This document shows positions 9,102-54,102 of a stretch of 64,000 bases of DNA, in pieces (position 1 is the stretch's first letter; each line of letters opens with the position of its first letter). The translations under genes and the position numbers were made by a program. Origin of the DNA: Octopus vulgaris (lineage: Eukaryota); assembly GCA_951406725.2 (NCBI GenBank), contig OX597818.1, positions 59,520,001 through 59,584,000 of the forward strand, given 5' to 3'. Under the pieces are notes generated by a model, which was given only the letters and a program-made list of their open reading frames with translations, searched no databases and was not told where the DNA came from.

Positions 9102-9162
<61 letters not shown>

Positions 9163-27200: not shown

Positions 27201-27395
27201 AGTCGCCATGATAGATCGGTAGCCACTACACACATATTTTTCTTCTCTCCTTGTTTTTCTGTGTCCCTTTCTGTAGAAGAGCGTAGGCTCGAAACGAAAA
27301 AGACCATTTCAATTCCCGAGCGTTATACTAATACATCTGTTTCTTTTGTACACCACCTGTCTTCATTTTTTGTTCTTTTTTCGTGAACTCTCCCG
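27201..27395 (+). mobile_element. Penelope-like 3' terminal fragment with variant hammerhead
   Basis: CTTT-CTGTAGA-A-GAGC-GTAG-GCTC-GAAACG-AAAAAG. Second copy of the 6212 family. TA-flanked. Confidence 0.65.
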
Positions 27396-27419
27396 ATACA
27401 TATATATATATATGTATTT

Positions 27420-27770
27420 TCATGTACATGTATCTTTAATTTTGTATTTTTTTCTTGTATGTATTTTTTGTGCAGTTCTTTGTTACGTCCCTTTTTGTGT
27501 TACATTTTTTCTTGCTCATTTACCCCTCTACGAATTTATTTTATTTCTGTCTCTGCCTTCGAAACACGTGTCTGCTAGCGACAGCTGATGAAGGGGATTT
27601 TTCCTTGTGTAGCATGTCCTGTACTTCGTTTTTCTGCTGCACATAATTGTTTTTCCCGTTTTCGTTTTCGTTTCGTCTTGTTCCACGTCTCTGTCCTTCT
27701 GTTGTAACAAAATGTCTTCTCCGTTTTCGTTCTGTTGATTTTTCGTCTTCTTGTGATGTCCTGTACGTAT
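27420..27770. mobile_element. T-rich, TA-flanked element with hammerhead-like halves
   Basis: CCTTCGAAACACGTGTC..ACAGCTGATGAAGG at 27557-27593, between TA tracts. Confidence 0.4.
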
Positions 27771-27894
27771 ATATATATTTATATATGCATGTATATATTA
27801 CATGTAGATGTCGGTACGTACATATATGTTTGTATGTATGCATATATTTTATTTATTACACTATATATATATATCTGTGTGTGTGTGTATTACG

Positions 27895-29410
27895 TTTATA
27901 TATTCGTTTAGCAAGATTCTTGATGTGAATCCGTGTTTTGAAACAGTATTGCATTTGGGGATGGTCATGATGCCTGTTTAGCCAATAAAACACTCGCACT
28001 ATGTATTTGGTGTAAATTTGCTTCAGCTTTATTTATTTTTACGTTAATCGTATTTCGGCCAGAGTTTATTCATCACACTTCTGTGGACCTCATCACTGGT
28101 CCTTTGCTTTCTTCTTTCTTATTTGTGTGTCTTTCCTTACTAACGATCAATCATTTTATATTTTGTATTCCTATTGTATGTGTCTTGATTTGCGCATGCG
28201 TATACTCCTATGTGTGTCTATGTTTAGTAAGTGTGTGTGTGGAGGAGTGTCTGTATTATCTGTATCCCCTGTTTATACGCGTTCGTTTAATTTGTTTTTA
28301 TTTATTTTGTTCGTGTGTTTATACCTACTTATTTTTTTCTATGCGTTCTTTTTTTGTATTTAATTTAATTTAATTTTCTTAACGAGTATAGTTATTTAAT
28401 TCCATTTGTTTATCTGTGTAGTGTATTTTATTTTGTTCATATTGTTATCAGTTAATGGGGATCTTATTGTGAAAAAAGAGTGTGGTGTTTTGGGGGGTGC
28501 TAGTGTTCCATTCCAGTTTCCTATTCAGGCTAGTTTTATCTTCTATTATGTGTGTAACTTCTGTAATTGATCTAAAGGTTGCGTCTATTCTATGTGTGGA
28601 CAAGATTTCCACTTCTATGTTTTTGAGTGAGTCCCCGTGTTCCTGCTCGGCGTGCTGGTACAGAACCGATGAACTCTTCTCTTCCTTAAGTTCCCTCCAA
28701 TGCCCATTTATCCGCTCTCCTATGCTCCGTGCTGTTTCCCCTTCGTACGTCGTTCTCTTGTTACTGCATCGTCCCGCTGTACATCTTATACCATAGACTA
28801 CATATCTGGGTTTACAGTTTGTTTGTGGGATAAATCTACATATAGTACAGTTCCTACCAGTACAGGGGGTTCTACTAAAAGGACAGATTCTATAGATTAG
28901 GGATTTGATAGGATTGCCTAGCATTTCAACAACCTTAATTCTTAGCTTAATTTTGTCTAGGGCTCTTTCTGAAGCGGTACGCGAGTTCGCCTTTAGAGGT
29001 GATGTCAACGAACATGACACTCTGGTATTTGTGGCTATCATACCATGAGTTAGCCTTCCTTATTCTCTTCTTAGTTCTTTCAATAGTGTTCCATGACTTG
29101 CTCCTATAGAGTGGACAAATCCCATTCCTATCGTTACGTATGATAGTTTCGAATTTCCTCATGGCTCCTTTGTATACTCTGATCCTTTCTCTATGGCTGT
29201 AACCTGAGAACTGCATGCGGTTAACGAAATGTTGTATGTGTCTCTTTGACTCTATAGAGTCGCACATGCGGGGCACATTTCGCATTACTCTGATATATAT
29301 TGAATTTGGCATTGTACGCGATAGGTGAGTTCCGGTAGATCAGGTATTTGGGCTAAATATATAATGCATGTGTTTTATTGGCTAAACTGGCAAAATGACC
29401 GTCCCCAAAT

Positions 29411-29417
<7 letters not shown>
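27895..29417 (-). mobile_element. 5'-truncated Penelope-like element with inverted pseudo-LTR arrangement
   Basis: GIY-YIG ORF and A-rich 3'UTR on the minus strand. 27947-28010 is inverted at 29353-29416 (53/64 identity by eye). Followed by (TA)n. Confidence 0.85.
28448..29312 (-). pseudogene. Penelope-like RT C-terminus/linker plus Cys cluster plus GIY-YIG endonuclease, frameshifted near 28970
   Basis: FVNRMQFSGYS..PLYRSKSW..VMFVDITSKGELA / IKVVE..CTGRNCTIC..NC..VVYGIRC..C..YEGETARSIGERINGH..LYQHAEQEH..EVTHI..LNRKLEW. Confidence 0.9.
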
Positions 29418-29450
<33 letters not shown>

Positions 29451-29454
<4 letters not shown>

Positions 29455-29875
29455 AAAGAAAAACAGAAATGGAGTTAAATGGAGGTGTTGTTCAAATCTT
29501 TATAATTCCAACATAATTCCAAATAATACGTTGGTATTATTCCAGAGGGAATAACATGATGTAAAACAATGCGATCATCTTGTCAGGGAAAGAAAGAGAA
29601 ACAACTTCTATAAGAAAATCGCATTGTTTTACATCATTTTATTACCTCTGGAATAATACCAATGTTTTCTTCGAAACATATGTCGGAAGTATAAAGATTT
29701 GAATAACCCCTGCGTTTAACTCCATTTCTTTCGTTTTCTGTTATACAAAAACCATTTCACTAAACCCTGGAATTTCTACCTTTTAAGTAGACTGTAACAT
29801 CCTTGGTAAATATGTGATTTTTTGCTACCCTGGTAACTAAATTTTTTCGTGTTATTTGTACACAATGAAAAAATA
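29451..29875 (+). mobile_element. Asymmetric hairpin element (arms ~29452-29581 / 29612-29745, unpaired extension 29746-29875)
   Basis: Arms pair by eye, e.g. GAAATGGAGTTAAA/TTTAACTCCATTTC and TTGGTATTATTCCAGAGG/CCTCTGGAATAATACCAA. Microsatellite on both sides. Confidence 0.85.
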
Positions 29876-30668
29876 CACACACACACACACATATATATTA
29901 TGTTATTCTTTAATAGAATCTGCTGTGTATTAGCTAACTGCAGGCTAGTATTAACTGAGTGTTAGCAGGCTGCAGGCGATGTGAAGAACATATATGTATA
30001 CAGAGGGTATTAGCTTGTCTATTTATACGACATATTCTTGGTTAGGAGATAATAACATCGGAAATATTTTTATTTGGTCTCAACTTTAGTAATCACTCTT
30101 GATTAATACCCTTCGTTAAGCAAGAAGATACATGGTATATGATTTCAAAATTTATTGAGTAGAGCAGTTCTATCGGAACATGTGCATCACCGGGTGCGTT
30201 GTACTACGCAATTTTTTCTATTTCTCATTCATCTAACAGAATCCGATTTCATTGGGAAAAGTTCTTTTTGCAATATTTATGACGATAGTATCTGCTCGAT
30301 CATAACTGGAGAGTATGTTAACGAAGCACCACAAATGTTCAGTTACATGATAAAAATCAGTGGATGCATTTTTTTTGGAGGGGGGGGTCTTTGCCCAAAA
30401 GATTTATCATATGGCCGAGGATAATTGTGCTTCAACTGTATTTTGAACATACACTTCGAGTACGGAATAATTACGAGTTTGATAAGATAACAATAATAGC
30501 GACGAAGAAAACTCCTCAATTAATGTGAAAATATTTATGACCCATTCTTCATTTTATAGCAGAGTGATGAAACTTAATTTGACAATCGATATAGCAGCAA
30601 CATTGATTGAAACAGCAACAACATTGAATGAAGCTCAGCAAATCACATTGGTATTCTATATCCATTAT

Positions 30669-30908
30669 AAGGCGGCGAGCTGGAAGAATCGTTAGCACCC
30701 CGGGCGAAATGCTTTGCGGTATTTCGTCTGCCGCTACGTTCTGAGCTCAAATTCCGCCGAGGTCAACTTTGCCTTTCATCCTTTCGGGGTCGATTAAATA
30801 AGTACCAGTTACACACTGGGGTCGATACAATCGACTTAATTCGTTTGTCTGTCCTTGTTTGTCCCCTCTGTGTTTAGCCCCTTGTGGGTAGTAAAGAAAT
30901 AGGTATTC
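30669..30908 (+). mobile_element. SINE A monomer
   Basis: Family A consensus, ending AAGAAATAGGTATT. Confidence 0.88.
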
Positions 30909-31814
30909 CATAACCATTTTTGCGATTGTGCCACAGTACACGAGTCCATAATTCGGTCGCCCGTCGTGTTAGATAGAGCTGCAAGATCTCTCACTAACCA
31001 CGTTCTACTACCTTTTTAAAATATGAACGCCTATTAAATAATCGTCCATTTTCAAGTAATAATATTTTTTTACTGAAAACAGCAATACTGTCACGGAGAG
31101 AATGCATTTGTACGTCTGATCCATCAGCACTGTCTATTGTTAAAAGATAACCGCACCAGCAGCAGCATCAAGAGTGATGACAGTCTGCTAATGTGTTTTA
31201 AGATCTGGTAGGATTGCCATAATATGTGACTTAATGGTGAAATCTTGTTTGCTATTAAGTAAAAAATGTTCACAAAATCAATGTTCTGAATTGTCAGTTA
31301 TAAGCATTGATCTTTCTATTCATTTTAATGATGATTCAAAGCAGTGAAATTATTAATGTGGGAAGCTTTAGGAATCGCCCTGCCTTCATATGTATACGTT
31401 ATACGCCGATCATAAAAATCCGTCAAGTGAATCGGCTCCACCATTCCACGATTTCATAGCTAACACATCCTTATATATTTATCGTTTCTTTTTTCTTTTA
31501 TTTCCGCTTTCCCGTGTTTCTATTATATTTTCTCTTCAATTCGTGCCTTTTAAATGACGGAAATCAATAGTGATGTAGACACTATTCTATGTTCAAAACA
31601 TCCTATATTAATAATATGGGGGGTTGTGATGTTTGGCCTCTCTTGGATTGTGTGTGTGTGTGTGGGGGGGATTTCCTATTATTTCTATCATTGGTGTATG
31701 ATTAAAAACTTCGCTTCTCAATCACGTGCCTTTCGGTTCGGTCGCAGAACACGCCACCTTGTCTTCTAATGTAGTTTCATACTGTTAGTGCTTTGGGAGA
31801 AAATCACTCTCTCC

Positions 31815-31847
<33 letters not shown>

Positions 31848-31853
<6 letters not shown>

Positions 31854-32156
31854 AGAAAAAGGGACAGGCAAAACAGGTTGCTTGACCGCATACCGAAAAA
31901 ATTGCATATGTGAATTACAGGGTCTGTCATTCCCGGAGTCCAACTTTGATAGAAATAAGCATTCTTGACTGCTATTTCTATTTTTTCGGTATGCGGTCAA
32001 GCAACCTGTTTTGCCTGTCCCTTTTTCTTATATACAATATATATACTGAACTTTACAGAAGTTCCTGCCGGTAATCGGCTATATTTACATACCGAATTCT
32101 ACCAGTAAATAATTGGGGTTTTTTAAAAGCCTTTATAGAAATTATTTACTCTTATC

Positions 32157-32160
<4 letters not shown>
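31848..32160 (+). mobile_element. Asymmetric hairpin element (perfect ~55-bp arms 31848-31902 / 31980-32035, extension to 32160)
   Basis: AAGAAAAAGGGACAGGCAAAACAGGTTGCTTGACCGCATACCGAAAAAA and its exact reverse complement. (TA)n at both ends. Confidence 0.9.
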
Positions 32161-32193
<33 letters not shown>

Positions 32194-32494
32194 GTATAAA
32201 AGGGAAGTTGACAAGTTGATAGAATTCTTGAAACGTCACGCACGCTGCTTTTCAGTATCAATTCTGGCTCTCTACGCTCTCAGTTCAAATCCTGCTTGTG
32301 TGAACTATACTTTTCAACCTTTGGGGTTGATGAAATAGTGTAATAGTGTACCAGTTCAGTACTGCTATTTACATCCTCCTTCTCTTAAAATTGTTAGTTT
32401 AGGACTAAACTAAGTGAAAATTATGTTTTCATTTCAGTAGGAGTCCTCTTTCTCCCAATAATGTCACAAACAATATTCAAAATAAGAAATATTT

Positions 32495-32840
32495 TTTCTA
32501 CTTTAGGCACAAGGCCCGAAACCTTTGGGGATGGGGCTGGTACTTAATTTATCCACCATGAAAGATAAAGTCAACCGCGACGGAATTTCAACTCAGAACA
32601 TAGCGGCAGACGAAATACCTATTTCTTTACTACCCGCAAGGTAGGACAAATGAGGACAGACAAGCGGATTAAGTCGATTATATCGTCCCCAGTGCGTAAC
32701 TGGTACTTATTTAATTGACCCCGAAAGGATGAAAGGCAAAGTCAACCTCTGCGGAATTTGAACTCAGAACGCAACGGTAGACCAAATACTGCAAAGCATT
32801 TCGCTCAGTGTGCTAAAATTTCTGCTAGCTCGCCGTCTTT
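32495..32840 (-). mobile_element. SINE A, 1.5-mer ending in an alternative (older-type) tail
   Basis: Second unit ends GGGCCTTGTGCCTAAAGTAGAAA. TSD AAAATAAGAAATATTT. Confidence 0.8.
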
Positions 32841-33059
32841 AAAATAAGAAATATTTTAAAGTTAAGGGGTGCGCTGTAGTCAACGTAATCGTCTTACCCC
32901 CACCCCGAACATGTTATGCAAAATTTAAGAACAATCTTCCGAAGTATAAAAGATGAAGAATATCCATCGAAACGTGACCGTCTTTCTTCTTTATAAGGTT
33001 CATATGAAACCAGAAATTTATTTATATGTTAGGTATACTTTGTTCGGCATATTTCTCTG

Positions 33060-33430
33060 TGTAGATACAATTGCCCAGTGGTTACGGCAGCGGAATCGCG
33101 TTCATAGGATCGCGGTTTCGATTCCGGGCGTTGTTAGTGTTTATTGAGCGAAAACACCTAAATGTCTGTGGGGCTCCGGCAGTGGGGGTTGTGAAGCCTG
33201 CTGTACTTTTCATCACAACTTTCTCTCTCTCTTTCTTCCTGTTTCTGTTGTACATGTATTTCAAAGAGCCAGCCTTGTCACACCCTGCGTCACGCTGAAT
33301 CTCCTCGAGGGCTACGTTAAGGGTACGCGTGTCTGTGGAGTGCTCAGCCACTTGCACGTTAATTTCCCGAGCAGGTTGTTCCGTCGTTCGGATCAAGTGG
33401 AACCCACGTCGTCGTAACCGACTGAGTGTC
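33060..33430 (+). mobile_element. SINE C plus tail 1
   Basis: Family C consensus. Confidence 0.85.
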
Positions 33431-33578
33431 ACAATATTTCTATATGTGGCACTCCATCAGCACGTATCTGAAGAGAGTTAACATTTATTTAGATTACAAA
33501 ATCAGCCAACAGGAGTTGTACACGCAGCATAGAGCTACACAAAACATGAAACACTGCGCTAAAATGATGATACAAATA

Positions 33579-33998
33579 TATATTTCTTTACTGCCCACAA
33601 GGGGCTAAACACAGAGAGAACAAACAAGGACAGACAAACGGATTAGGTCGATTACATTAACCCCAGCGCGAAACTGGTACTTAATTTATCAACCCCGAAA
33701 GGATGAAAGGCAAAGTCGACCTCGGCGAAATTTGAACTCAGAACATAACTGCAGACGAAATACCTATTTCTTTACTGCCCACAAGGGGCTAAACACAGAG
33801 GGGACGAACAAGGACAGACAAACGGATTAAGTTGATTATATCGACTCCAGAGAGTAACTGGTTCTTAATTTATCGACCCCGAAAGGATGAAAGGCAAAGT
33901 CGACATCGCCGGAATTTGAGCTCAGTACGTAAGGACAGACGAAATATCGCCAGGCATTTTGGCCGGCGCGCTAACGTTTCTGCCAGCTCGCCGCCCTT
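33579..33998 (-). mobile_element. SINE A dimer
   Basis: TSD ATGATACAAATA. Confidence 0.88.
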
Positions 33999-35793
33999 CA
34001 TGATACAAATAGCACTGGCAAGGAATAATATAGTTTGATAAGAAGCAAACGGATTTATCTGACGCCTCAAAAGCTTCATCTGCGACAATGACTCCTGCTT
34101 CGATCGAAGTTTGAAACCTGAGACTCAAACGCATAATTCTGATTTTTTCCGTGAGAAATATATTCTGCCTAACCCTTTAAGAGTGAAAATAATAAACCGG
34201 AGTTTTCGTTCTGAAACCTTGTTCCTCAGCGTTCTTCAGTTTAAATGTCTTCCGTGTTTGTAAATCCTTTGTTGTGCAACTCCAAAAATTTCAATAACCT
34301 CATTCATAGCAACATCGATTTACAATTGATAATCAATATGAACAACTGTTGTCGTTTCATTACAAACAATCTGACATGTAGTTTTTCAAGTCCTTCAAAA
34401 ATGTCAACAAATTCAGGGCGGAACTTTTACCGCACAACTTTCATATTTCTCCCTCCCATCTTTTTGTTTCGAGGTCCCTTTTTTTTTTTACTACTTTATA
34501 TTTTACATCACCTAAGACATTGAATGGTTTTCATATAGTTTTTTTTTTGGGGGGGGGGACTTTTTTCTTTTAAGTATTGAACCTTTTTTTCCTTCATCAA
34601 TAGGATTTCGTAGCTGATCAAATATGTATCGAAGTCAATATGCTTTTAATAACGACTTGGTCATCTGTTTGCAAAAGTGACAGATTTGGCAGCAAAACTC
34701 ATTAACTGAACAATTCTGTTGAAGATGCTATGGCGATTCTGGGTGACAAGGGGCAAAATCTACGATCAATAATATGTGAACGAGAACAGTTTTGACTTCA
34801 CAATATATAATAATAATAATAATAATAATTATTATTATTATTATTATTATTATCATTTTTATTATCATTAGTATTATCATCATCATCATCATCATTATTT
34901 TTATAAACCGATCTCCGAACAGGTATGCAGCAGGCCAGGCTATTTCTATCCCCCTTCTTTTGTGAACTGGATTATCGCATTTATATTGTATTTTTAGGGT
35001 TTTCGACACGATCCACAAACATTGATTTTACGTTACACCTTCACACATGCATTGCCTTCAAACAATGGCGGTACTTGATCTTTAGCTACTTTAAAACATA
35101 ATATCGCTGTCTCTGTTGCTCTTTTTTCCCCGTTTCCTTTTGTTTTACCGTGTGGATTCTTGCTGTCAGGTACTTAACGAATACATGACTTTCGTTTACT
35201 TTAACCGTGTTCTTCTATTATTTCTTCAGGCTGTTTTGGGAGTAAAACTGTTATTTCAATATCAACGCCCGCTGGTTCTCATGCCCTGTTACATTATCTT
35301 AATTCCTATATCCCTACGACATGCATTGCTTGTGGTAAACGTTACGTCATTCGCTGCATTCTTGGCGTAGCCATCTTAGATAAAATTGGTAACAATTCGC
35401 CTAATAAACTGCAGTTATCATTGTGTTCAAACATTGAAAGATACGAGGAACAATGCTGCTCACTTCTTTATTTCGTACCTTCTGAAAACGAAAAATTTCT
35501 CACATGAAATTTCATTCAAGCATTGTTTATATTTACAAAAATCTGACATATAGCGCGTTGACCTGAAGAAAATTTCGAGGTCTTTGTCCAGTTATGTCAT
35601 CGCACTTCGCTTCTAAAGTAATTTCGTGTATCTTGAATTGGTCATTATGCCTATAAATAAGACATGCACTGATTCTAAGTAATTTCTTTAATGTTTATTA
35701 GTCAATTAGTAACCTATTCAACCAATTAACTAACCGATCTTTAGATAATGCTTTCGTTTAATCAATCACCGGGTTTTTAATATAATGAAAGGT

Positions 35794-36175
35794 GGAGGCG
35801 CAATGGCCCAGTGGTTATGGCAGCGGACTCGCGGTCATAGGATCGCGGTTTCGATCCCCAGACCGGGCGTTGTGAGTGTTTATTGAGCGAAAACACCTAA
35901 AAGCTCCACGAGGCTCCGGCAGGGGATGGTGGTGATCCCTGCTGTACTATTTCACCACAACTTTCTCTCACTCTTACTTCCTGTTTCTGCTGTACCTGTA
36001 TTTCAAGGGGCCAGCCTTGTCACTCTCTGTGTCACGCTGAATATCCCCGAGAACTACGTTAAGGGTGCACGTGTCTGTGGAGTGCTCAGCTACTTATACG
36101 TTAATTTCACGAGCAGGCTGTTCCGTTGATTCGGATCAACCGGAACCCTCGTCGTCGTAACCGATGGAGTGCTTG
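35794..36175 (+). mobile_element. SINE C plus tail 1, full length
   Basis: GGAGGCGCAATGGCCCAGTGG..TAACCGATGGAGTGC. 16-bp TSD TAATATAATGAAAGGT. Confidence 0.92.
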
Positions 36176-36437
36176 CATAATATAATGAAAGGTATTGATG
36201 GCTACAATGAAAGGACACAAGGAAAGACTAGTAATCCTTCGCGTTTGTCACTTCATAGCAAAATGCCCTCAGCCCCATCCGCTGCATTAAGAACTTGCAC
36301 GGTTTGCAATAGGATTATAGCAAGAAATGTGGGCATAATTAAATAATCTACAGAAATTACTGCTAAAGTATTATTAAGGAGCATCTAGGTACTCAACTGT
36401 GCAAAATCACTAATTTTTGTGATTATATATAAGTACT

Positions 36438-36712
36438 GTGGAGGCGCAATGACCCTGTGGTTAGGGCAGCGGATTCGCGGTTACAGGATCGTGGTTTCGA
36501 TTCCCAGACCGGGCGTTGTGAGTGTTTATTGAGCGAAAATACCTAAAGCTCCACGAGGCTCCGGCAGGGGGGGGGATCCCTGCTGTATTCTTTCGCCACA
36601 ACTTTCTCTCACTCTTTCTTCTGTTGACCTGCTCGCTTAGCGAAGCGCATTGTGACCAGCGATGTGTAGCAGCATCTGATAGCCTGGTCGGTCACGGGGA
36701 TCACACTGATAT
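36438..36712 (+). mobile_element. SINE C plus tail 2 (internal deletion)
   Basis: Lacks the ~35-bp CAGCGGGGTGGCGTCATTTGAAGG segment seen in the copy at 44070. Confidence 0.85.
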
Positions 36713-36913
36713 AGGTACTAGCTATGTTTAGAGACAGATTAAGTTAAATTTTATCTTTGGTGGATACAAAACATCAGTAATTGTTCATGTTGATCCAATT
36801 TTCTATATCCTGAGAGGAAGGAAAAGACATTTATTTATTTATCCTTGTCTAGGTTTGCTACACTACAACGATAGTTATGGCTGCGCAAACAATTCGTGGT
36901 ATTTCCACCAAGC

Positions 36914-37336
36914 AAGGCGGCGAGCTGGAAGAAACGTTAGCACGCCGGGCGAAATGCTTAGCGGTATTTCGTCTGCCGTTACGTTGTGAGTTCAAATTCC
37001 GCCGAGGTCGACTTTGCCTTTCATCCTTTTGGGGTCGATAAATTAAGCACCAGTTACGCACTGGGGTCGATGTAATCGACTTAATACCTATGTCTGTCCT
37101 TGTTTGTCTCCTCTGTGTTTAGCCCCTTGTGGGTAATAAAGAAATAGGTATTTCGTCTGCGTTACGTTGTGAGTTCAAATTCCGCCGAGGTCGACTTTGC
37201 CTTTAATTCTTTCGGGATCGATAAATTAAGTACCAGTTACGCACTGGGGTTGGTGTAATCGACTTAATACCTATGTCTGTCCTTGTTTGTCCCCTCTGTG
37301 TTTAGCCCCTTGTGGATAATAAAGAAATAGGTATTT
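36914..37336 (+). mobile_element. SINE A dimer
   Basis: TSD CACCAAGCAA. Confidence 0.9.
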
Positions 37337-37910
37337 GCACCAAGCAACTGGAATCTCAAAGATGATTTCTCTCCATTATGTATTTCGTTGACTCATAAGA
37401 ATGTGTCTATGTATGTGTGTCTGTGTGAGGTGCCTATGCGTGTGGTGTAAAATAAAAATATTTTACCAATAATTAAGGCTACCTCACTGCGTGCATGTGT
37501 GTTTGTGTGTGCATGATGAGTTAAAAAGTATTATGCCCAAAATTAAGGCTTTGTTCAGTCAATCTTAGAGTAACTGAATAATCGCTAATATGTAGATAGA
37601 GAACAGAGAAAGAGATACAAACATCAAGTTGCTAATACGCTGTGGAAATGCAGCATTCTTTCAATGAATGTGGGGAAATCTCGTTGCGGATTGAAGCGGA
37701 CGGTAGAGAAACCGTTGAGATAATGTGTCGTTAATGACTCGACTAAACCGTGGGCCAGATTATAGTTTAGTTTTAATTACAACTCATAGTCTTCTATCAA
37801 AATCTATAAATTATTTCTTTATGTTTGTATGTCCAATATTCATACTAACTGGACTTACACACATATGTCTGTATATGTATGCGTTTGTGTGAGTGAGTTG
37901 AAATATACTA

Positions 37911-38255
37911 CGGCACTCTGTCGGTTACGAAGACGAGGGTTCCAGTTGATCCAATCAACGGAACAGCCTGCTCGTGGTAAATAACTTGCAAGTGGCTAAA
38001 CACTCCACAGACACGTAGTTTTCGGGGATACTCGGAGTTTGGTAAGGGTCGGCCTTTGAAATACAGGTACAACAGAAATAGGAAGACAGAGTGAGAGAAA
38101 GAGTACAGAAGCGTTCGCTACCAGTGCCTGCCGAAGCCTCGTAGAGCTTTAAGTGTTTTTGCTCAATAAACATTCACAACGCCCGGTCTGGGAATCGAAA
38201 CCGTGATCCTATGAGCGCGTGTCCGCTCTCCTGACCACTGGGACGTTGCGACTCC
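37911..38255 (-). mobile_element. SINE C plus tail 1 (diverged)
   Basis: Family C consensus with deletions. Confidence 0.8.
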
Positions 38256-38376
38256 ACTAGTTGATATATAGTCATACATTGTAAGTACTTTCAGTAAGAA
38301 ATTGCTATATATGTGACTTGTAACTTCGAAGACACTTATTCTTGATTGTAGTTCACAATAGTATTTCGGAGAGACA

Positions 38377-38605
38377 AGGAGTTTGGTAAGGGTCGGCCTT
38401 TGAAATACAGGTACAACAGAAATAGGAAGACAGAGTGAGAGAAAGAGTACAGCAGCGTTCGCTACTAGTGCCAGGCTATCAGATGCTGCTACACATCGCT
38501 GGTCACAATGCGCTTCGCTAAGCGAGCAGGTCAACAGAAGAAAGAGTGAGAGCAAGTTGTGGCGAAAGAATACAGCAGGGATCACCACCATCCCCTGCCG
38601 GAGCA
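38377..38605 (-). mobile_element. Chimeric SINE C fragment (tail 2 piece joined to tail 1 piece)
   Basis: 38377-38472 is a near copy of 38033-38130. 38473-38605 is an inverted near copy of 36557-36688. Confidence 0.75.
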
Positions 38606-39233
38606 TCTCTTCATAATATGTGTTCACGCATCTGCCCCTGTGATTAGCCTATCTCAGTGTACATACTTTAAAAATTTGGGCTGCCTTTAACTATTTTATC
38701 ATGCATTTTGATTCCCGCCATGTGCATATATCATAATGCAAGCATCGCCCTACTATCTGTTATATCCAAATCTGCCACAGCTATTGACATCTTTTTTTTA
38801 CAAAGATTGGAAAACTAAGGGAACAGAAAACATTATGATTGCATTTACTTTATCTTTGGTTTTTTTTTTTTTTACTTCTTATAGCATCGCTTTAAATCGG
38901 TGCAATCAGAGTGGATCCGGTGTTAAATTAGATTCCTTTGTGAACTTATAAAATTCTCCAAAGCTGATTTCTGCATCGTGAACCTAGTTAGATAAGATCT
39001 AACATATTTAATGGAGCGGCGCTTTAAATGCATAACGAAATGGAAAGTTTCAAACATCAAGAACAGTTCTTGTCAAAGCAGGCAAGAACGAAAACTCGGT
39101 AATTTAAATTTATTAAAAATCAAACGGAGATCTGCATGAATGGATCGAAAGATGAATATTGAGCAGGAACAATATTGCAGCAGAATTCATATGTTACTGA
39201 TTATGAAATCATTATTAGAAATTTGTAGAATAA

Positions 39234-39678
39234 GGCGTAGGAGTGGCTGTGTGGTAAGTAGATTGCTTACGATCGACATGGCTCCCGGTTCAGTCCCACT
39301 GCGTGGCACCTTGGGCAAGTGTCTTCTACTATAGCCTCGGGCCGCCCAAATCCTTGTGAGTGGATTTGGTAGACGGAAACTGAAAGAAGCCTGTCGTATG
39401 TATATATATGTATATATATGTGTGTGTATGCATGTATATGTGTGTGTATATGTTTGTGTGTCTGTGTTTGTCCCCCACCAACATCGCTTGACAACTGATG
39501 CTGGTGTGTTTACGTCCCCGTAACTTAGCGGTTCGGCAAAAAGAGACCGATAGAATAAGTACTAGACTTACAAAAATAAGTCCTGGGGTAGGTTTGCTCG
39601 ACTAAAGGCAGTGCTCCAGCATGGCCACAGTCAAATGACTGAAACAAATAAGAGAGAGTCAAAGAGAGTAAGAGTAAG
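39234..39678 (+). mobile_element. SINE B, full length
   Basis: Family B consensus. Confidence 0.9.
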
Positions 39679-39931
39679 ACAGTATCATCAGAACTTAGTA
39701 CGGACTGATTAGGGAAAGATTTGACCATAATCCTTACTTGTTGCGTGTTCGTTAAGGAGATTTGAACTGGAATAAAATATTCACCTGATATTTGATCGTT
39801 TCAACAACATCAATCCCAGACATGTTTCTCTGTTACTAGATTTCTTTACCGAATCTCTGTTTAAAGGGAACAACCAAATTATGTGAGTGGAAACTATACA
39901 CTGATCAAACTAATTATAATAATGAAATAAG

Positions 39932-40163
39932 AAGGCGGCGAGTTGGCAGAAACGTTAGCACGCCGGGCGAAATGTGTAGCCGTATTTCGTCTGCCGTTAC
40001 GTTCTGAGTTCAAATTCCGCCGAGGTCGTCTTTACCTTTCATCCTTTCGGGGTCGAGAAATTAAGTACCAGTTTCCCACTGGCGTCGATGTAATCGACTT
40101 AATCCCTTTGGCCGTCCTTGTTTGTCCGCTCTATGTTTAGCCTCTTGTGGGCAGTAGAGAAAT
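39932..40163 (+). mobile_element. SINE A monomer
   Basis: TSD-like TATAAYAATGAAAT. Confidence 0.85.
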
Positions 40164-40725
40164 ATATAACAATGAAATCACAAAACTTTAGGTATTCAGC
40201 ACATTTTTTCGACCTGTTTTTCTCTTTCTTTTCTTTATCACCAAACGGTCATTCCAGTATAAGTCATATCAAGACTTCGTTGACATCGTCTCAGACAAAA
40301 TTTTGGTGTTTCCTCTTTACTTTAAACTTTACTTTTTATTTAATGCAGTCTATAAATAATTTTTCATCGTAAGGCGACGAAATTGCAGAGTCGTTAGCCC
40401 GCCGGTAAACCACCTAGCAGCATTTCATCCGTCTTTCCGTCCTGAGTTCAAATTCCGCAAAGTGTTATTTTATCTTTCACCTTTTCGAGGTCCCTAAAGC
40501 AAGCACCAGTTTCGCATCGCAGAACACAGTAGTCGAAATGCCACACTCCCCAAATTGTTGGTCTTGTTCGAAAATTAGAAACCAATATTCTTTCGTCTTC
40601 ACAACATACACTACAGGTTCTGAATCATATACGTTAATTCCCTTGACTGTAAAAAAAAACATTTTTGCCTTCCCCAAGAGTATTAGTTTCTCTTTATTCA
40701 TTACTAAATACCCCACATTTACACA

Positions 40726-40726
<1 letters not shown>

Positions 40727-40775
<49 letters not shown>

Positions 40776-40842
40776 ATGTATACATGTATATATATATATA
40801 TATCTATCTATATATATATATATATGTATGTATATATGTGTG

Positions 40843-40873
<31 letters not shown>

Positions 40874-40874
40874 G

Positions 40875-40913
<39 letters not shown>

Positions 40914-41042
40914 ATAAATGCGTATATATATATGTGTGTGTGTATATATATATATATGTGTGTATATATATGTATATATATATATATATATATGTGTGTG
41001 TATATATATATATATGTGTGTGTATATATACATATATGTGTG

Positions 41043-41073
<31 letters not shown>

Positions 41074-41160
41074 GTGTGTATATATATATATATATGTGTG
41101 TGTATATATATATATATGTGTGTGTGTATATATATATATATGTGTGTGTGTATATATATA

Positions 41161-41208
<48 letters not shown>

Positions 41209-41222
41209 ATGTATATATATAC
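40727..41222. repeat. ~500-bp compound (TA)n/(TG)n microsatellite
   Basis: Direct inspection. It is the source of the 238-251 aa pseudo-ORFs. Confidence 0.95.
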
Positions 41223-41879
41223 CTGATATCATATTTACATATTTGTGGAAAAGATCTCTATCTTTCTGTAATTATATTTCATGGATTTTTTAATAGTCCA
41301 TTGTGTTTACGTCCTTACGTTCTTATCGCGCCTTGCTTATTAACATATATATGTCTCGCTACTTCTACACTATTTCCATAGCTTAATGACCGAGATCTTT
41401 ATCCTCTTAGTATTTAGCCTAGTTTTAAGAACCAATCGGAAGTGCCAATAATATCACTTCTTAAAAATATTTTTTATTATGATGAATTTTCTTTTGTCTT
41501 CTCATCTTCTCATTTCTTTCAAATCTTTGGTCGCCTAATTATCTTCTCTCTCATTATCTCTCCTTCATTATCTAAGATGATATGAGAGATTTTTTTTTTT
41601 TTGAAATCTTTCGAAAATAAAATAAGTGTCACACCAAATTCCCAACGGAAGCCTTGTCCTGCTCTAATGGCTTTTCAAGATGAGTATCGTTTGATTACCG
41701 TCTCTTAAGACTTCTATCCGCGCACCTAGTCCAATATTAAAAGAAACAGTCAAATGCCGCAACTCCAAACAGAAAAGGTGTCGTACTAGAAGTCTTCCTC
41801 TTGAATATATTTCTCTCACAAATTCCTTTCATTCCTTTCCTTCCATTACAAATCTGTTTTCGTTTCGGTTTCCCTGTTT

Positions 41880-42110
41880 ATCTCTTACTCTTTACTCTTT
41901 ACTCTTTTACTTGTTTCAGTTATTTGACTGCGGCCATGCTGGAGCACCGCCTTTAATCGAGCAACTCGACCCCGGGACTTATTCTTTTGTAAGCCCTGTA
42001 CTTATTCTATCGGTCTCTTTTGCCGAACCGCTAAGTAACGGGGATATAAACACACTAGCATCGGTTGTCAAGCAATGCTAGGGGGACAAACACAGACACA
42101 CAAACACACC

Positions 42111-42160
<50 letters not shown>

Positions 42161-42323
42161 GTACGACGGGCGTCTTTCCGTTTCCGTCTACCAAATCCAC
42201 TCACAAGGCTTTGGTCAGCCCGAGGCTATAGCAGAAGACACTTGCCCAAAGTTCCACGCAGTGGGACTGAACCCGGAACCGTGTGGTTGGTAAACAAGCT
42301 ACTTACCACACAGTCACTCCTGT
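41880..42323 (-). mobile_element. SINE B, full length
   Basis: Family B consensus. Confidence 0.9.
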
Positions 42324-42444
42324 CATTTAATTATTTGATATACTTATTTTATTCAAGTTCAGATTTTCTTAAACAACACACAAATAAGGATTGCGGTCAA
42401 ACCTTTCCGTTATCAATCTGTGCTAAGTTCTGATAATAATTTCT

Positions 42445-42796
42445 TATAATAATAATAATGAAATTATTGTATAGAGTGCTCAGATGCCCCACAACTTGTC
42501 AAAAGTCCGTATAAAGCATATGCAGTAATGTACAAATGTCTGGGAAGTGAACAGTATATGAGTCAGATACATGTTTGCGTGTTTATGGAGGGGAGAAAAT
42601 CAAGTGTAGTGTTGGCGAATCTCAGGAAGCATGGAAGTTTTGAAGGATGCAGTGCTCCGACAACTAACAACTGATGCAGGCAGTTTGTTCCATGCTTCAG
42701 CAACTCTTAGCGTGAAAAAATGTTTCCAAAAAATCAGGGGAGCTGTGATGTTTTCTGACATTGTAAACATGTCCAAAGGTGTTAGACAGATGGAGT
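42445..42796 (-). mobile_element. CR1-like LINE 3' fragment with (ATT)n tail
   Basis: FWKHFFTLRVAEAWNKLPASVVSCRSTASFKTSML..* followed by a UTR ending AATAATTTCATTATTATT. Confidence 0.82.
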
Positions 42797-43189
42797 TTAT
42801 TCTATAAATTTCTTATAATGATTTCATAATCAGTAACTGATGTTTCCATTCATACGAATTCTGCAGCAATACTCTTTCTGTTCAATATTCATCTTTCGAT
42901 CCTTTAGACAAAATAACCTTTCTGTTACAGACACAAGGCCTGATATTTTGAAGGAGGAGTACAGTCGATTACATTGGCCCCAGTGATCAAGTGATAGTTA
43001 TTTCATTGATTCGGAGAGGATAAATGGCTAAGTCGACCTCGGGGAAATTTGAACTCAGAACGTAGCAAAGCATTTCGTCCAGCGTGCTAACGACTCTGCC
43101 AGCTCGCCAGCATGAAACTTCTGATGTCTCAATACAGTTTGAACATATTTCAGGTAATAATAATACCATTAAAGTTTCCTAGACGTTAT

Positions 43190-43460
43190 GCAGCAGCAGC
43201 AGCAACAGTAGCAGCAGTAATAGTAGTAGTAGTAGTAGTAGTAGTAGTTGGTAGAAGCCATACTAGTTCTAGTAGGAGCAGCAATAGTAGCAGTAGTAGT
43301 AGTTATACTAGTAGTAGTGGCATTAGTAGTTCTAGCAATAGTAGCAGCAACAGCAGCAACAGCAGCAGTAGTAGTAGTAGTATTAGCAGCAGCTATTCTA
43401 GTAGTAGTAGCAGTAGTGAATGTAGTACTATTAGCAATAGCAGCAGCAACAGCAGCAATA
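43190..43460. repeat. Mixed (TAG)/(CAG)/(CAA) trinucleotide tract
   Basis: Direct inspection. Confidence 0.9.
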
Positions 43461-44069
43461 ATTTCTTGGAAGAAGTTTCGGCGAATTTTCAAAGCATCGA
43501 GCAAAATGCTATGTTCCATATGTTCTAACCCTTTAAGTCGAGGTTTCAACCCGTCAAACTTTGCCGAAGGGGAGTTGACCTGATTACAAACTGAATATTA
43601 TACACTTAATGTTATTCATTGTGTTTCTAATACAATAGCATCACAGCACGCTGCTTTTGCATCACATTGGAGCAAGGTGACATACGATGTCGACAATTAC
43701 GGAGTATTTCTGTTTTTTTTTTATAAAAATGTCATGGGGGAAAATGTTCTGTTCAATATAATCTAGTTGATTGATTGTCTATGCACAAAACGTCAACAAC
43801 ATTTTCAAGTAACAATTCTGGAAGGCCGTTGGAGATTCATATGAAGAATTGTTCTTGAATCATTTCACGGCTGCTCACGTGCATATTCAAGTTTATCATT
43901 CTCAAAGCTAAGAAGCAACATCGTTTTACAATATGGTGTGTTAGTCTTTTAAAAATGCACGCTACCCAAATGCTATTTTTGGTTTCATAGGATTTAAGAA
44001 TATTATGACATAATGTAATGCTGGCTGCCTAATTCACGCCGAATTATTGGATCAAGTCCAATTATGTAT

Positions 44070-44363
44070 TAGTGGTTAGGGCAGCGGACTCGCTGTCGTA
44101 GGATTGCGGTTTCGATTCCCAGACCGGGCGTTGTGAGTGTTTATTGAGTAAAAACACCTAAAGCTCCACGAGGTTCCGGCAGAGGGTGTTGGCGATCCCT
44201 GCTGTAAACTTTCGCCACAACTTTCTCTCACTCTTTCTTCTGTTGACCTACTCACTTAGCCAGCGGGGTGGCGTCATTTGAAGGCTAAAACAATGCGAAG
44301 CGCATTGTGACCAGCGATGTGTAACAACATCTGATGGCCTGGTCGGTCACGGTGATCACGGTG

Positions 44364-44366
<3 letters not shown>
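44070..44366 (+). mobile_element. SINE C plus tail 2
   Basis: Family consensus. The tail runs into (TA)n. Confidence 0.87.
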
Positions 44367-44426
<60 letters not shown>

Positions 44427-44427
<1 letters not shown>

Positions 44428-44833
44428 TTCAACAATTGAGGGTAAAATTAATTAGTTATTAATCAATTTCACCAAGCATTCAGTATGTAAAGGGACCATT
44501 TAAGGCGAATTCAAAATATTACATTGTATAAAAGGGCTTAGTAAAATAAACTTCTTTGCCACATACTGAACTCATTAGAAATAGCAGCCAAAAAAATATT
44601 TTTTTAGCCATTTCTAATACTTAAAGAAAATTTCTCTCAGAGAGTGTTTACTCAAAATAACCCACGAATGTTTTTACCCCCATACCTTCGTGGGTTATTT
44701 TGAGTAAACACTATCTGAGAGAAATTTTCTTTAAGTATTAGAAATGGCTAAAAAAAATCTTTTTTTGGCTGCTATTTCTAATGAGTTCAGTATGTGGCAA
44801 AGTAGTTTATTTTACTAAGCCCTTTTATACAAT
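44427..44833 (-). mobile_element. Asymmetric hairpin element (146-bp arms 44523-44668 / 44687-44833, extension 44427-44522)
   Basis: Arms differ at about 3 positions, 18-nt loop, (TA)n on both sides. Confidence 0.92.
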
Positions 44834-44860
44834 ATATATATATATATATAAATCATATAT

Positions 44861-45238
44861 AGGATAAAATTTTTCGAAAAAATTCTATCAATGGTCAGCA
44901 TATTAAAAAATACCTTTAAAGGTTAATTTTATAAGCAATTTATAAACAAGGGCAAAAGAAAAGAATTCTAATGCCAAATATGACGAAAAGAGACAAATCG
45001 TCAATAACCATATAATTTATCACTATAAGCACGCGTCTCGAATCAAGCCGACAGAAATTTCTAATTCCGATAATAACGGAATTTTTAGAAATTTCTGTCA
45101 GCTTACTTCGAGACGCGTGCTTATAGTGACAAATTATAAGGTTATTGACGATTTGTCTATTTTCAGCATATTTGTCATTAGAATTTTTCTTTTGCCCTTG
45201 TTTATTCGCTGTATTTTGTTTTGTTTTTCGTAAACTCT

Positions 45239-45241
<3 letters not shown>
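44861..45241 (-). mobile_element. Asymmetric hairpin element (arms 44942-45064 / 45085-45205, extension 44861-44941)
   Basis: Arms about 90% complementary, TA-flanked, with an extra 36 nt at the right end. Confidence 0.9.
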
Positions 45242-49140: not shown

Positions 49141-50573
49141 CAACTCTCAAGTCGGTTCCAGTAAATTATTACTGTCAGTCTCGGCCATTGATGATCATCT
49201 CTTTTTAAGTCCTCAGAATATTATTTATTCTATAAAGAACTGAACTACTAGTTTCTGTTCATTTGGCAGCAGTTGTTATTCCAATGCTCATCAATTAATC
49301 TGGACATTATACCGGTAAGCATTTCCCATATTACAGGTGATAGTTCTCTACTTGTCTTTTTCATAAGATTTACACCTGCATTGTATTAATGGTATTTTCT
49401 CTGCATTTAGTTACACACATAGAAACACAATAAGAATTGAGACTTTCGTTTAACATTTCCGCTATTCTCTACTTTAGCGGTGTTAGACTCTTTAAAATTT
49501 AAGATGTTCTCTGTAGGCCTAGACATATTCATCACAAAAATATGTGCATGATATGGTTTTCTCATATCAAGATAAACAGCGCGTGACCTTGCAGGTGGCG
49601 CCCAGTTAGGAATATCAAAAGGGTCGAGTAGCCCATCCGCTTCAAAGGTTCCTGAATCCCATTATCTTAAAGAACACACAACAAGTAAGGATTACGGTCA
49701 AACCTCTCCAGGTCATGTGATGTAGAAAGAAGGGGAAGAAAGACAGAGAGAAAAATGGAAAAGTAAGAAAAATATATAAATGTATACAACGAAAATTAAG
49801 GGCAAAAACGGAAAAAAAATTCACAGTAAAAATGCTCTTCTCGATGCGTGTTGAGTACCAGTTCAGACAATATTTTGCACTTCAGGCATGGATTGTAATC
49901 CAGGGATCATTCTAAGATAACTTTCAGTTCTTTTTATGATCATTCCAAGATCTCCTACAAGCACTGGTATTGTAACCGTCTGGAGACGCCATCTTTCCTC
50001 CTACTACTGTGTGGTATTACTGAATATTGTTAGTTTCTATTTCCCGTTTTGTACTTGAGATAATCATAAATATGTGATGGCTGGAGAAGATAGTAGGAGG
50101 AAGAGAAGCAGCTTGGTGAATAGACCAAATTCCAAGGGTCAGTAAATACGTTCGGCAAATGGTGAGAGGGCGGTCAACAATGGAGTTTCGCATTCCTGTT
50201 CGATCAGGAGACGAAAGAGGCGTTCTACCTTGCAGTCAGCAGAAGTCAAATGTGGTTACCACAATTAGCAATCAATAATAGCGCTGATCATGGCCTTGGA
50301 TTTTAATTACTGATAGAAAAAAAATAATAATATAAAGAAATAATAATAACTTTTTTCAGGATTAAATAAAAAGATAATAAACGGAAAATTCGACATACCT
50401 ATATACACATATATATATCTTTTGTGGGAGATGTTTAAATTTCCCTTCTCTTTTTATAAGTTTTGCTGTGGTTTATAGTTTTGGCAGTTGTGCTCTTTGT
50501 ATATATTGGCAGGTGCTTATCTCGTTAATTTTTATCAGGCGTTTAATCTGTGGCAATAAAAGGTATGTTTTTG

Positions 50574-52451: not shown

Positions 52452-52514
<63 letters not shown>

Positions 52515-52522
<8 letters not shown>

Positions 52523-53176
52523 TTTGTCTATTTATTCGTTCATTCCACTCTTCGTTCTTTCGTTCCCCCTCTTTCACATTTGTTTGCCTTCTCTTCTTAC
52601 TCAGTTTCCCTCCACTGTTCACTTCACTCTGTCGCTGTCATTTTTCTCGCCCCTCCTTAATTCTTTTGTCCCTCTGCTTCTTCTTCTCCCTCTTCTCTAC
52701 CCACATGACCGGTGCCTGCACAAGCCTGTTCTTTTTTCCTGGTCGGCCGTTGTCCGTGCAACATCGATATTCTTCCCTGTGTTTGTGAGAACTTGTATCT
52801 CTGCCGTAAGGGTTTATTTCCACACACGCCAGCTTGATTTAATTCGTTCTAAGTCGAAAGACACCTGTTGTTATATCCTGTGTTTTGTAGTTGTGTAACA
52901 TTGTCCTTTTTCTCCGCCCTTCTTTTTGTATACATTCGCTGCTTTCTTCCAAGGAATCGAATGCTCCTAGTTTAGTTTTTCCTTGGAGCTGGCCAGATTG
53001 GAGCAATCTCAAGTATAATCAGCCGAAATTGCGAAGATAATCTTGTACCTGACTGAGGAGAGAAAAGTTCGAATGACCCGTCCTTGTTTCTTTGTATTGT
53101 CTATCTGTATGTTTTGTTGTCCCATTTTTGTATCACCGAACTGCCCGGATGTTTTGGGTTCTTGTCCCATGTTGTA
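52515..53176. mobile_element. Pyrimidine-rich element bounded by (TA)n arrays (possible PLE terminal region)
   Basis: Sharp TA boundaries and a strand bias like 27420-27770. No ORF of note. Confidence 0.35.
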
Positions 53177-53184
53177 TATATATA

Positions 53185-53727: not shown

Positions 53728-54102
53728 CATCATCATTCATCATTGTTCGACCGTGGTCGACACAATGGAATTTACCATGCTACGCCAGACTTCACGGTCC
53801 ATCATGGCATTACGGAGTTCCTGTTGCTGGATGCCTGTATCCCTGGAGATTACATCAGGGTAGGAAAGTGTGCGCCCTCTGGTATTGCGAGTAGATGGCT
53901 TCCAGAGGAGAAGAGTAGAAATTACCTCTTTTTCAGCTCTACAACAATGTCCAGCAAACTGGACTCTGTTACCTTTCACAAGAGATGACACAGGTGGTAG
54001 TTTCCCATATATTTGCATTTTGGTTGGATGGCGCTTCCACGAGAGATTTTGATCTCTCATAAAGAGGTGAGTGTAGGTTCCATCCAACCGACTTTCAAGC
54101 TT
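53728..54102 (-). mobile_element. RTE-clade LINE 3' fragment (ORF 53740-54105) with (GAT)n tail
   Basis: RLDGTYT..NLSWKRHPTKMQIYGKLPPVS..RVQFAGHCCR..LLLWKP..RG..YPD..MMDREVWR. TSD CATTGAT at 53721 and 54103. Confidence 0.9.

What the first reader, a model, noticed from the sequence alone, without database searches (positions are those of the whole stretch)
27895..45241. Family of TA-embedded asymmetric hairpins linked to a Penelope-like retroelement
Seen: four elements (29451-29875, 31848-32160, 44427-44833, 44861-45241) share one architecture: (TA)n, an unpaired 80-130 nt extension, an arm, a short loop, the inverted arm, then (TA)n. Their arm sequences are mostly different. Read towards the arm, the extensions share a motif: TTTCACCAAGCATTCAGTATGTAAA (44467), TTCTATCAATGGTCAGCATATTAAA (44883), TTTACTGGTAGAATTCGGTATGTAAA (32109-32084, minus) and TTTACCAAGGATGTTACAGTCTACTTAAA (29810-29782, minus). 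The same motif sits in the same position beside the inverted repeat of the GIY-YIG element (TTTAGCAAGATTCTTGATGTGAA, 27907). In the four hairpins the arm starts at a TGTATA/TTATA motif. Known: Penelope-like elements form inverted pseudo-LTRs with a 3' extension. Inference: these MITE-looking hairpins are extremely truncated insertions from a diverse PLE radiation that targets TA microsatellites and folds back at an internal TA-like site. That process would deposit ready-made long dsRNA/cruciform hairpins.
Basis: partly seen in the sequence, partly recalled or inferred. Interest (0 to 1): 0.85.

Follow-up and report, generated by a model that had tools for sequence, protein, structure and literature searches.

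The report
Folded-back Penelope-type stubs in TA repeats
Four short hairpin-shaped repeats sit in or next to TA microsatellites; three share a folded core and are likely head-to-head end pieces left by Penelope-type retrotransposons (a known insertion pattern), although no sequence tie to the neighbouring Penelope-like gene was found.

Summary
The four asymmetric hairpins (H1-H4) are real, and so is the neighbouring 5'-truncated Penelope-like element G (C-terminal GIY-YIG, inverted repeat, one-sided 60-nt tail). In H2, H3 and H4 it is one strand of a 9-10 bp stem that pairs with the arm and closes a multi-branch fold with compensatory changes; these three are diverged relatives. Thousands of contigs from four public runs (four organisms) lie on H3/H4. 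Outer ends are well covered, cover falls inward, inner junctions vary, and the loop continues the longer arm. That is the known Penelope insertion signature: two 5'-truncated copies head-to-head, with a tail on one. Differences from described elements: tails of 81-127 nt (published 30-40), no hammerhead, no link to an ORF shown. A TA-targeting DNA-transposon origin is not excluded. This scan already noted fold-back Penelope stubs in other genomes. Verdict: new variant of a known kind, interest 0.4.

The parts
27889..27948 (-). G: one-sided 3' tail (60 nt), next to (CA/TG)n then (TA)n
27949..28017 (-). G: 3' pseudo-LTR segment (near arm of the inverted repeat)
   Evidence: 81% to 29346-29414
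28039..28096 (-). G: degenerate hammerhead-like core (C3 read as G) in the 3' UTR
   Evidence: only hit of a strict pattern on both strands of the window; no Rfam hammerhead hit
28451..29294 (-). G: RT-thumb-side region, CX4CxxC linker and GIY-YIG endonuclease, frameshift near 28965, 5'-truncated
   Evidence: 881 relatives at E<=0.001, best 47%; two tblastn segments; invariant Cys/His/Arg; best hit named as an Octopus bimaculoides protein
29346..29414 (+). G: inverted copy of the 3' end without the tail, joined to (TA)n 29417-29451
29452..29872 (+). H1: far arm 29452-29581, loop 30 nt, near arm 29612-29745, extension 29746-29872; same layout but no homology to H2-H4 shown
31854..32158 (+). H2: far arm 31854-31902, 'loop' 31903-31979 (its last 18 nt match H3's arm), near arm 31980-32036, extension 32037-32158; stem P1 31985-31993 with 32088-32096
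44428..44831 (-). H3: extension 44428-44524, near arm 44525-44671, loop 12 nt, far arm 44684-44831; P1 44479-44488 with 44561-44570; P2 44535-44560
44861..45205 (-). H4: extension 44861-44941, near arm 44942-45072, far arm 45074-45205; P1 44895-44904 with 44977-44986; shares the TA tract 44832-44860 with H3
45206..45241 (+). 36-nt piece like the 3' end of a TA-ending repeat family (27215-27398, 6214-6400), fused to H4's far arm

Best explanation
H2, H3 and H4 are related, highly repeated asymmetric hairpins in (TA)n that are likely two 5'-truncated 3' ends of a Penelope-type retroelement RNA joined head-to-head, only one of which keeps the tail. Inferred mechanism, by analogy with the in vitro result for the anole element PAc (PMC11167929): the RT/GIY-YIG protein nicks both strands of AT-rich DNA and primes cDNA from each. 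One cDNA starts at the outer start site (keeps the tail); the other starts at an inner site (no tail). Both stop early at variable points and are joined, so the 'loop' is the excess of the longer copy. The inner start falls at a TATA-containing stretch in the middle of a conserved fold (stem P1 closing hairpins P2, P3, P5), the predicted cis signal for the protein. Shown: layout, homology of H2-H4, high repetition, variable junctions, pairing pattern. Inferred: RNA intermediate, orientation, role of the fold, identity of the partner. G is a genuine, separate truncated element with the same layout and is not shown to be their master. H1 is probably an unrelated family with the same layout.
For: (1) 18 nt of H2's loop align with H3's paired arm. 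Contigs in two runs extend H3's far arm inward through and past its loop (loose ends at 44667-44669, one contig each). (2) Summed depth over H3 falls from the outer arms to 15-35% mid-arm and 1.5-5% at the loop in 4 of 4 runs; outer arms are 1.09-1.92 times the extension. (3) The 15 listed junctions converted to arm offsets keep -24 to 98 nt of the near copy and 22 to 134 nt of the far copy, each in one contig per run, most at single-contig depth. (4) H3's two arms share letters rare in the family (44526, 44551; 3% or less of laid depth), as expected from one template. (5) Longest perfect arm:extension stem 9, 10, 10 bp in H2, H3, H4-far (shuffle p 0.018, 0.009, 0.019), about equidistant from the boundary. 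4 of 17 pairs change on both sides, 1 of 500 shuffles. H2 and H4 fold to the same topology, z -4.6 and -3.0. Majority letters at 44551, 44553 and 44983 restore pairs broken in these copies. (6) G shows the same layout with an ORF that fixes the orientation; a relative, L002, ends directly in (TA)n. (7) The published Octopus Naiad and Hydra families are listed as (TA)n-targeting. (8) H4's far arm is fused to the last 36 nt of another TA-ending repeat, which a template switch would give.
Against: No hairpin is tied to an ORF: 0 of 4 hit by tblastn with 165 relatives of G's protein. No match to published Octopus Naiad/Hydra ends (12 short motifs, 0 hits in context; ends compared by eye). Tails are 81-127 nt against 30-40 published. 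No hammerhead core in the 130-190 nt available. The covariance model of H2-H4 does not find G or H1 at E<=10. A thermodynamic arm:extension duplex test is significant only for H2 on one strand (p 0.013, 0.030; 2 of 20 tests). H3's copy folds no better than shuffles (z -0.96), and H4's near arm has no significant perfect stem. The structure was derived from these same three sequences, so leans towards it. The boundary hairpin is common in AT-rich DNA (6 pairs or more at 19% of sites). 12 of the 15 joints in table 5 have a side under 30 nt and were laid at 80% likeness, which the tool flags as unreliable; three are symmetric and three are deeper than single contigs (161, 273, 1088), as fixed subfamilies would be. 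Part of the depth drop at 44596 reflects this copy's private A/T run. Internal deletions of a long-TIR transposon also give variable junctions.
Confidence: 0.6

Rival explanations
1. H2-H4 are non-autonomous cut-and-paste elements (Mutator/foldback-like MITEs) with long inverted repeats, TA-microsatellite targeting and internal deletions; the extension is an extra terminal segment.
For: Long inverted arms and very high repetition. TA-targeting Mutator-like MITEs exist (PMC4486113, abstract). Some symmetric or deeper junctions. Two symmetric TIR-type elements lie in the same window (8997-9274, 54760-55434). The three copies of the P1 word could be transposase-binding sites rather than an RNA stem.
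Against: The outer ends are not inverted repeats of each other: one arm lies 81-122 nt inside. The extension is covered as deeply as one arm in three of four runs. One junction at about 25-fold single-contig depth lacks the near arm altogether (44500 to 44698). Arms behave as one linear sequence through the loop.
Confidence: 0.2
2. They are rolling-circle (Helitron2/Helentron, HINE-like) non-autonomous elements whose single-strand hairpins guide an HUH transposase.
For: In the far arm the 10-nt P1 word lies 33-41 nt from the end, directly before a hairpin and a T run, like the 3' end described for Helitron2/HINE. Folding is as good with DNA as with RNA parameters for H2 and H4.
Against: No matching repeat within 0-4 nt of the other end; the inverted repeats are 49-147 nt rather than 8-15; the target is (TA)n rather than TT; the 'hairpin end' is present twice, facing outward.
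Confidence: 0.08
3. One reading: all four hairpins and G belong to one radiation marked by a shared tail motif.
For: Same layout in all five. G's arm has a GG..CC segment of like length followed by an A-rich word, and a 7-bp arm:tail stem at the same arm-side offset (38 nt).
Against: That stem has p 0.29; no sequence, profile or covariance-model link; G and H1 do not fold better than shuffles.
Confidence: 0.12

Closest known systems
Insertion units of endonuclease-bearing Penelope-like elements: 5'-truncated copy plus adjacent inverted truncated copy, optional tail (Craig et al. 2021 PMC8557442; Arkhipova et al. 2013 PMC3846280)
   Same: Head-to-head inverted repeat, tail on one side only, 5' truncation, (TA)n targets, up to tens of thousands of copies (Naiads).
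   Different: Tails here 81-127 nt (G 60) against 30-40; H1-H4 not tied to any ORF; no hammerhead seen; a conserved multi-branch fold across the arm/tail boundary, which I did not see described in the passages read.
PAc (Poseidon, anole) internal RT initiation (Frangieh et al. 2024 PMC11167929)
   Same: Tail equals the sequence between two RT start sites; both strands of AT-rich DNA are cut and extended; initiation in a stem-loop.
   Different: PAc starts in an AC-rich stem-loop not homologous to the target; here the inner boundary is a TATA stretch resembling the (TA)n target. Mechanism untested here.
Neptune/Nematis-type C-terminal GIY-YIG PLEs (for G)
   Same: RT-side region, then CX4CxxC linker, then GIY-YIG with Cys and His pairs; inverted pseudo-LTR; hammerhead-like core; TA site.
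   Different: Truncated and frameshifted copy; clade not placed in a tree.
MuTAnT and other TA-targeting MITEs (PMC4486113); Helitron2/HINE (PMC3627910, PMC4067079)
   Same: Short, non-coding, high-copy, inverted repeats, microsatellite or T-rich sites.
   Different: MITEs have terminal symmetric TIRs; HINEs have 8-15 bp asymmetric repeats and TT targets; neither fits the ends seen.

Membership tests
EN+ Penelope-like element, Neptune/Nematis type (element G) | RT followed by C-terminal GIY-YIG endonuclease | tested here: met
   Two ORF segments align in order to relatives up to 796 aa; two relatives hit Pfam GIY-YIG below the curated cut-off (E 8e-4, 3e-3); G's own ORFs have no Pfam hit; core RT is missing by truncation.
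EN+ Penelope-like element, Neptune/Nematis type (element G) | CX2-5CxxC linker and CCHH residues | tested here: met
   C38, C43 invariant, C46 near-invariant; C65, H113 invariant, H108 near-invariant in 15 sequences; definition from PMC8557442 section 6.
EN+ Penelope-like element, Neptune/Nematis type (element G) | Inverted pseudo-LTR with one-sided tail | tested here: met
   69-nt inverted repeat, 81%; 60-nt tail on the 3' side only.
EN+ Penelope-like element, Neptune/Nematis type (element G) | Hammerhead ribozyme in the pseudo-LTR region | tested here: inconclusive
   Pattern hit at 28096 with C3 read as G; no Rfam hit, but Rfam also missed the core visible in L001.
EN+ Penelope-like element, Neptune/Nematis type (element G) | Placement in the Neptune or Nematis clade by RT phylogeny | not tested
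   No core RT in the copy; no reference set in the tools.
Penelope-like element insertion unit (H2-H4) | Two independently 5'-truncated copies of one 3' end, head-to-head | tested here: met
   Loop continues the longer arm; variable junctions with the tool's caveat.
Penelope-like element insertion unit (H2-H4) | Tail on one copy only, 30-40 bp | tested here: not met
   One-sided yes, but 81-122 nt long.
Penelope-like element insertion unit (H2-H4) | Derived from or mobilised by an RT/GIY-YIG ORF | not testable with these tools
   No genome held; pattern scans found nothing; contigs laid are short; no protein match.
Penelope-like element insertion unit (H2-H4) | Hammerhead within the pseudo-LTR (absent in Naiads) | tested here: inconclusive
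   None in the 130-190 nt present; in G the core lies about 80-150 nt inside the arm end, so some truncation could have removed it.
Penelope-like element insertion unit (H2-H4) | Insertion in (TA)n as in Neptune, Naiad, Hydra | tested here: met
   6 of 6 ends of H2-H4 abut TA tracts.
MITE / TIR DNA transposon | Inverted repeats at both termini | tested here: not met
   One arm is 81-127 nt internal.
MITE / TIR DNA transposon | Constant length within a family | tested here: inconclusive
   Many different junctions, but short-sided and a few symmetric or deeper ones.
MITE / TIR DNA transposon | Fixed TSD and DDE partner | not testable with these tools
   TA tracts hide TSDs; no genome.
Helitron2 / Helentron (HINE) | 8-15 bp asymmetric repeats, 5' copy 0-4 nt from the end | tested here: not met
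   Arms 49-147 nt; no P1 copy at a terminus (definitions).
Helitron2 / Helentron (HINE) | 3' repeat followed by a hairpin 20-60 nt from the end | tested here: met
   P1 word then P2 hairpin in the far arm.
Helitron2 / Helentron (HINE) | TT target | tested here: not met
   (TA)n at the ends.

The most novel reading that the evidence does not exclude
H2-H4 are a ribozyme-free, non-coding, SINE-like parasite of TA-targeting Penelope elements: a roughly 110-nt multi-branch RNA fold with a target-like TATA hairpin sets the two reverse-transcription start sites 80-120 nt apart, and it has seeded on the order of ten thousand long hairpins per octopus genome. Its many copies would map the Penelope cis signal and test whether target mimicry defines the inner start.
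Probability: 0.25. Interest if true: 0.65.

Novelty: new variant of a known kind. Interest (0 to 1): 0.4.

Why it matters
Such repeats look like MITEs and would be filed as DNA transposons or 'unknown'. If they are Penelope ends, a large repeat fraction of octopus-type genomes is misassigned. The conserved fold across the arm/tail boundary offers a natural, many-copy test of how Penelope RT chooses its two start sites, which is known from one in vitro study only. The basic fold-back pattern is already published.

Tried and rejected
Exact pattern scans for H2/H3 and H4 cores: 0 hits in viral, metagenome and prokaryote genome contigs. Word-based protein search of G for longer forms: 0 of 567 candidates; the HMMER scan then found 881. 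PDB sequence search: none. Related PLE loci: 4 in metagenomes, none with an inverted pseudo-LTR in view, none similar to the hairpins; none in viral contigs. Rfam: only microRNA-type hairpin hits below cut-off. Ginger-type TGT..ACA ends rejected because 44526 is A in the family. A hammerhead reading of the extension motif rejected by inspection; a DIRS internal complementary region was looked for by eye only in the H1 and H2 loops and not seen. Summed depth is not a copy number (tool's warning); the crude ratio to single-contig depth is 9,000-62,000. The four runs are coded organisms sharing at most 0.37 of the words, so they may be relatives of the window's species. P1 coordinates for H2 in notebook entry 2 were off; those in 'parts' are re-read.
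Full report
Setting. The window is repeat-rich animal DNA, 37% GC. The best protein relative of element G is named as an Octopus bimaculoides protein (47% identity), so the host is likely an octopus. No genome is held.

Observation. H1-H4 and G carry real inverted repeats, each above all 300 shuffles. Each has an unpaired extension on one side: 127, 122, 97, 81 and 60 nt. Eight of ten ends abut (TA)n; two lie behind short (CA/TG)n runs. G and H1 share one TA tract; H3 and H4 share another. H4's far arm is separated from (TA)n by 36 nt that match the 3' end of another TA-ending repeat of the window. The quoted motifs are at the stated places, but they fail as a sequence motif: pairwise shuffle p 0.026-0.74, G against any hairpin 0.07-0.69, and 10 leave-out profile runs never recover G's tail nor any held-out extension below E=11.

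Element G. On the minus strand it reads: (TA)n, inverted 69-nt copy, an RT-thumb-side segment, a frameshift near 28965, a CX4CxxC linker and GIY-YIG domain, a 3' UTR with a degenerate hammerhead-like core, the 69-nt arm, and a 60-nt tail. Craig et al. 2021 (PMC8557442; passages, sections 6-7 in full, supplement searches and 2 of 59 supplement parts) give the linker as the mark of Neptune/Nematis/Naiad endonucleases and describe the inverted truncated copy, the 30-40 bp one-sided tail and (TA)n targeting. C3G abolishes hammerhead cleavage in PAc (PMC11167929), so G's core is likely dead. One of four related loci, L002, ends directly in (TA)n. G is an ordinary truncated copy.

H2, H3, H4 are relatives. 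Their arms align (H2/H3 p=0.001, H3/H4 p=0.015, H2/H4 p=0.086) and a 110-nt core spanning arm and extension is collinear. P1 encloses a two-part hairpin P2 in the arm, a TATA-containing hairpin P3 at the arm/extension boundary and one or two hairpins in the extension. H2 and H4 reach this topology as their minimum-energy fold (z -4.6, -3.0); H3's copy forms P1, P2, P5 but at z -0.96; G and H1 are at z 0.09 and -0.17. For H3 and H4 the arm-to-extension strand folds slightly better than its complement, matching G's sense; H2 folds well either way. Four of 17 pairs change on both sides, but the structure was drawn from these three sequences. Majority letters in the sequencing runs restore two P2 pairs in H3 and one P1 pair in H4, while two other majority letters shorten H4's P1 to about 7 pairs. 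Against: a duplex-energy test is significant in 2 of 20 tests, and boundary hairpins of 6 pairs occur at 19% of AT-rich sites. A covariance model of the core finds only the training elements and their far arms; G and H1 are absent at E<=10.

Other copies. H3+H4 (44428-45241) were laid with contigs of 4 of the 24 listed runs, four coded organisms: 8801, 3174, 2773 and 1678 contigs at 80% likeness. Summed depth over H3's extension is 0.07-1.1 million against about 5-60 for most listed single contigs; the tool warns this is no copy number, but it implies very high repetition. Depth in both arms summed is 1.09-1.92 times the extension, then falls to 15-35% mid-arm and 1.5-5% at the loop; part of the first drop is due to this copy's private A/T run, and how contigs fitting both arms are counted is not stated. 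Of 45 joints 15 are shown (plus 12 of 29 in table 5c); 15 that I converted keep -24 to 98 nt of the near copy and 22 to 134 nt of the far copy. Each is one contig per run, most at single-contig depth; three are deeper and three symmetric, and 12 of the 15 in table 5 have a side under 30 nt, which the tool flags. Loose ends in two runs continue H3's far arm inward beyond its loop, and 18 nt of H2's loop match H3's arm: the loop is the excess of the longer copy. H3's arms share two letters found in at most 3% of laid depth.

Mechanism. Frangieh et al. 2024 (PMC11167929, parts 1-2 of 4) show that a Penelope protein cuts and extends both strands of AT-rich DNA and starts cDNA at two internal RNA sites, the tail being the stretch between them. 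Arkhipova et al. 2013 (PMC3846280, passages) describe head-to-head inverted copies and mobilisation in trans by pseudo-LTR sequence alone. The hairpins fit this: outer start gives the tailed copy, inner start at the TATA stretch gives the tail-less copy, and both abort early. This step is inferred. The partner is unknown: no tblastn hit with 165 relatives of G, no match to the published Octopus Naiad or Hydra ends (57 supplement parts were only motif-searched, and line breaks can hide a motif). Rivals are a TA-targeting long-TIR transposon (PMC4486113, abstract) and Helitron2/HINE (PMC3627910 and PMC4067079, passages); both fail terminal-structure tests, but the first also predicts variable junctions. 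By the membership test the hairpins work like Penelope insertion units but cannot be filed as members: the tail is two to three times the published length and no ORF link is shown.

Novelty. The layout is published (also PMC8969392, passages). Ten paper searches returned no description of these octopus families or of this fold; Repbase and Dfam could not be searched, and bioRxiv supplements are closed. The retrozyme preprint (part 1 of 5) and PMC10294476 (passages) did not cover them in what I read. Earlier notes of this scan report fold-back Penelope stubs in other genomes; they are unchecked and not counted as evidence. What is new here is modest: long tails, no ribozyme seen, and a conserved fold across the tail boundary in very abundant families. 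Verdict: observation partly confirmed, interpretation partly supported, new variant of a known kind, interest 0.4.

Noticed in passing
window 54760-55434: Foldback TIR element: about 250-nt arms at 80%, 18-nt loop, tandem 21-mers in the left arm, TATA at both ends.
   Followed up: no
window 8997-9274: Symmetric MITE-like repeat flanked by TTAA, arms 88% alike, with a (TA)n tract at its centre.
   Followed up: no
window 59485-59924: Two copies of the same SINE-like repeat head-to-head, both 3' ends in short TA runs.
   Followed up: no
window 27215-27398, 6214-6400, 7640-7820: TA-ending repeat family with hammerhead-like cores (canonical core at 7752 minus); likely Penelope or retrozyme-type 3' ends; its last 36 nt are fused to H4.
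   Followed up: partly
window 27415-27767 and 52510-53184: TA-flanked units with split or partial hammerhead-like words, seen by eye.
   Followed up: no
window 54336-54565: Ends in a GC hairpin followed by CTAG, like a Helitron 3' end (pattern recalled and as described).
   Followed up: no
window 53740-54144 (minus): 134-aa frame resembling the C-terminus of a LINE ORF (recalled resemblance); no Pfam hit.
   Followed up: no
window 49834-49935 and 54217-54318: Dispersed 102-nt repeat, 77% alike.
   Followed up: no
L001 3235-3275: Hammerhead core visible in the 3' UTR of a PLE relative, not detected by Rfam; the contig has a 123-nt direct terminal repeat.
   Followed up: no
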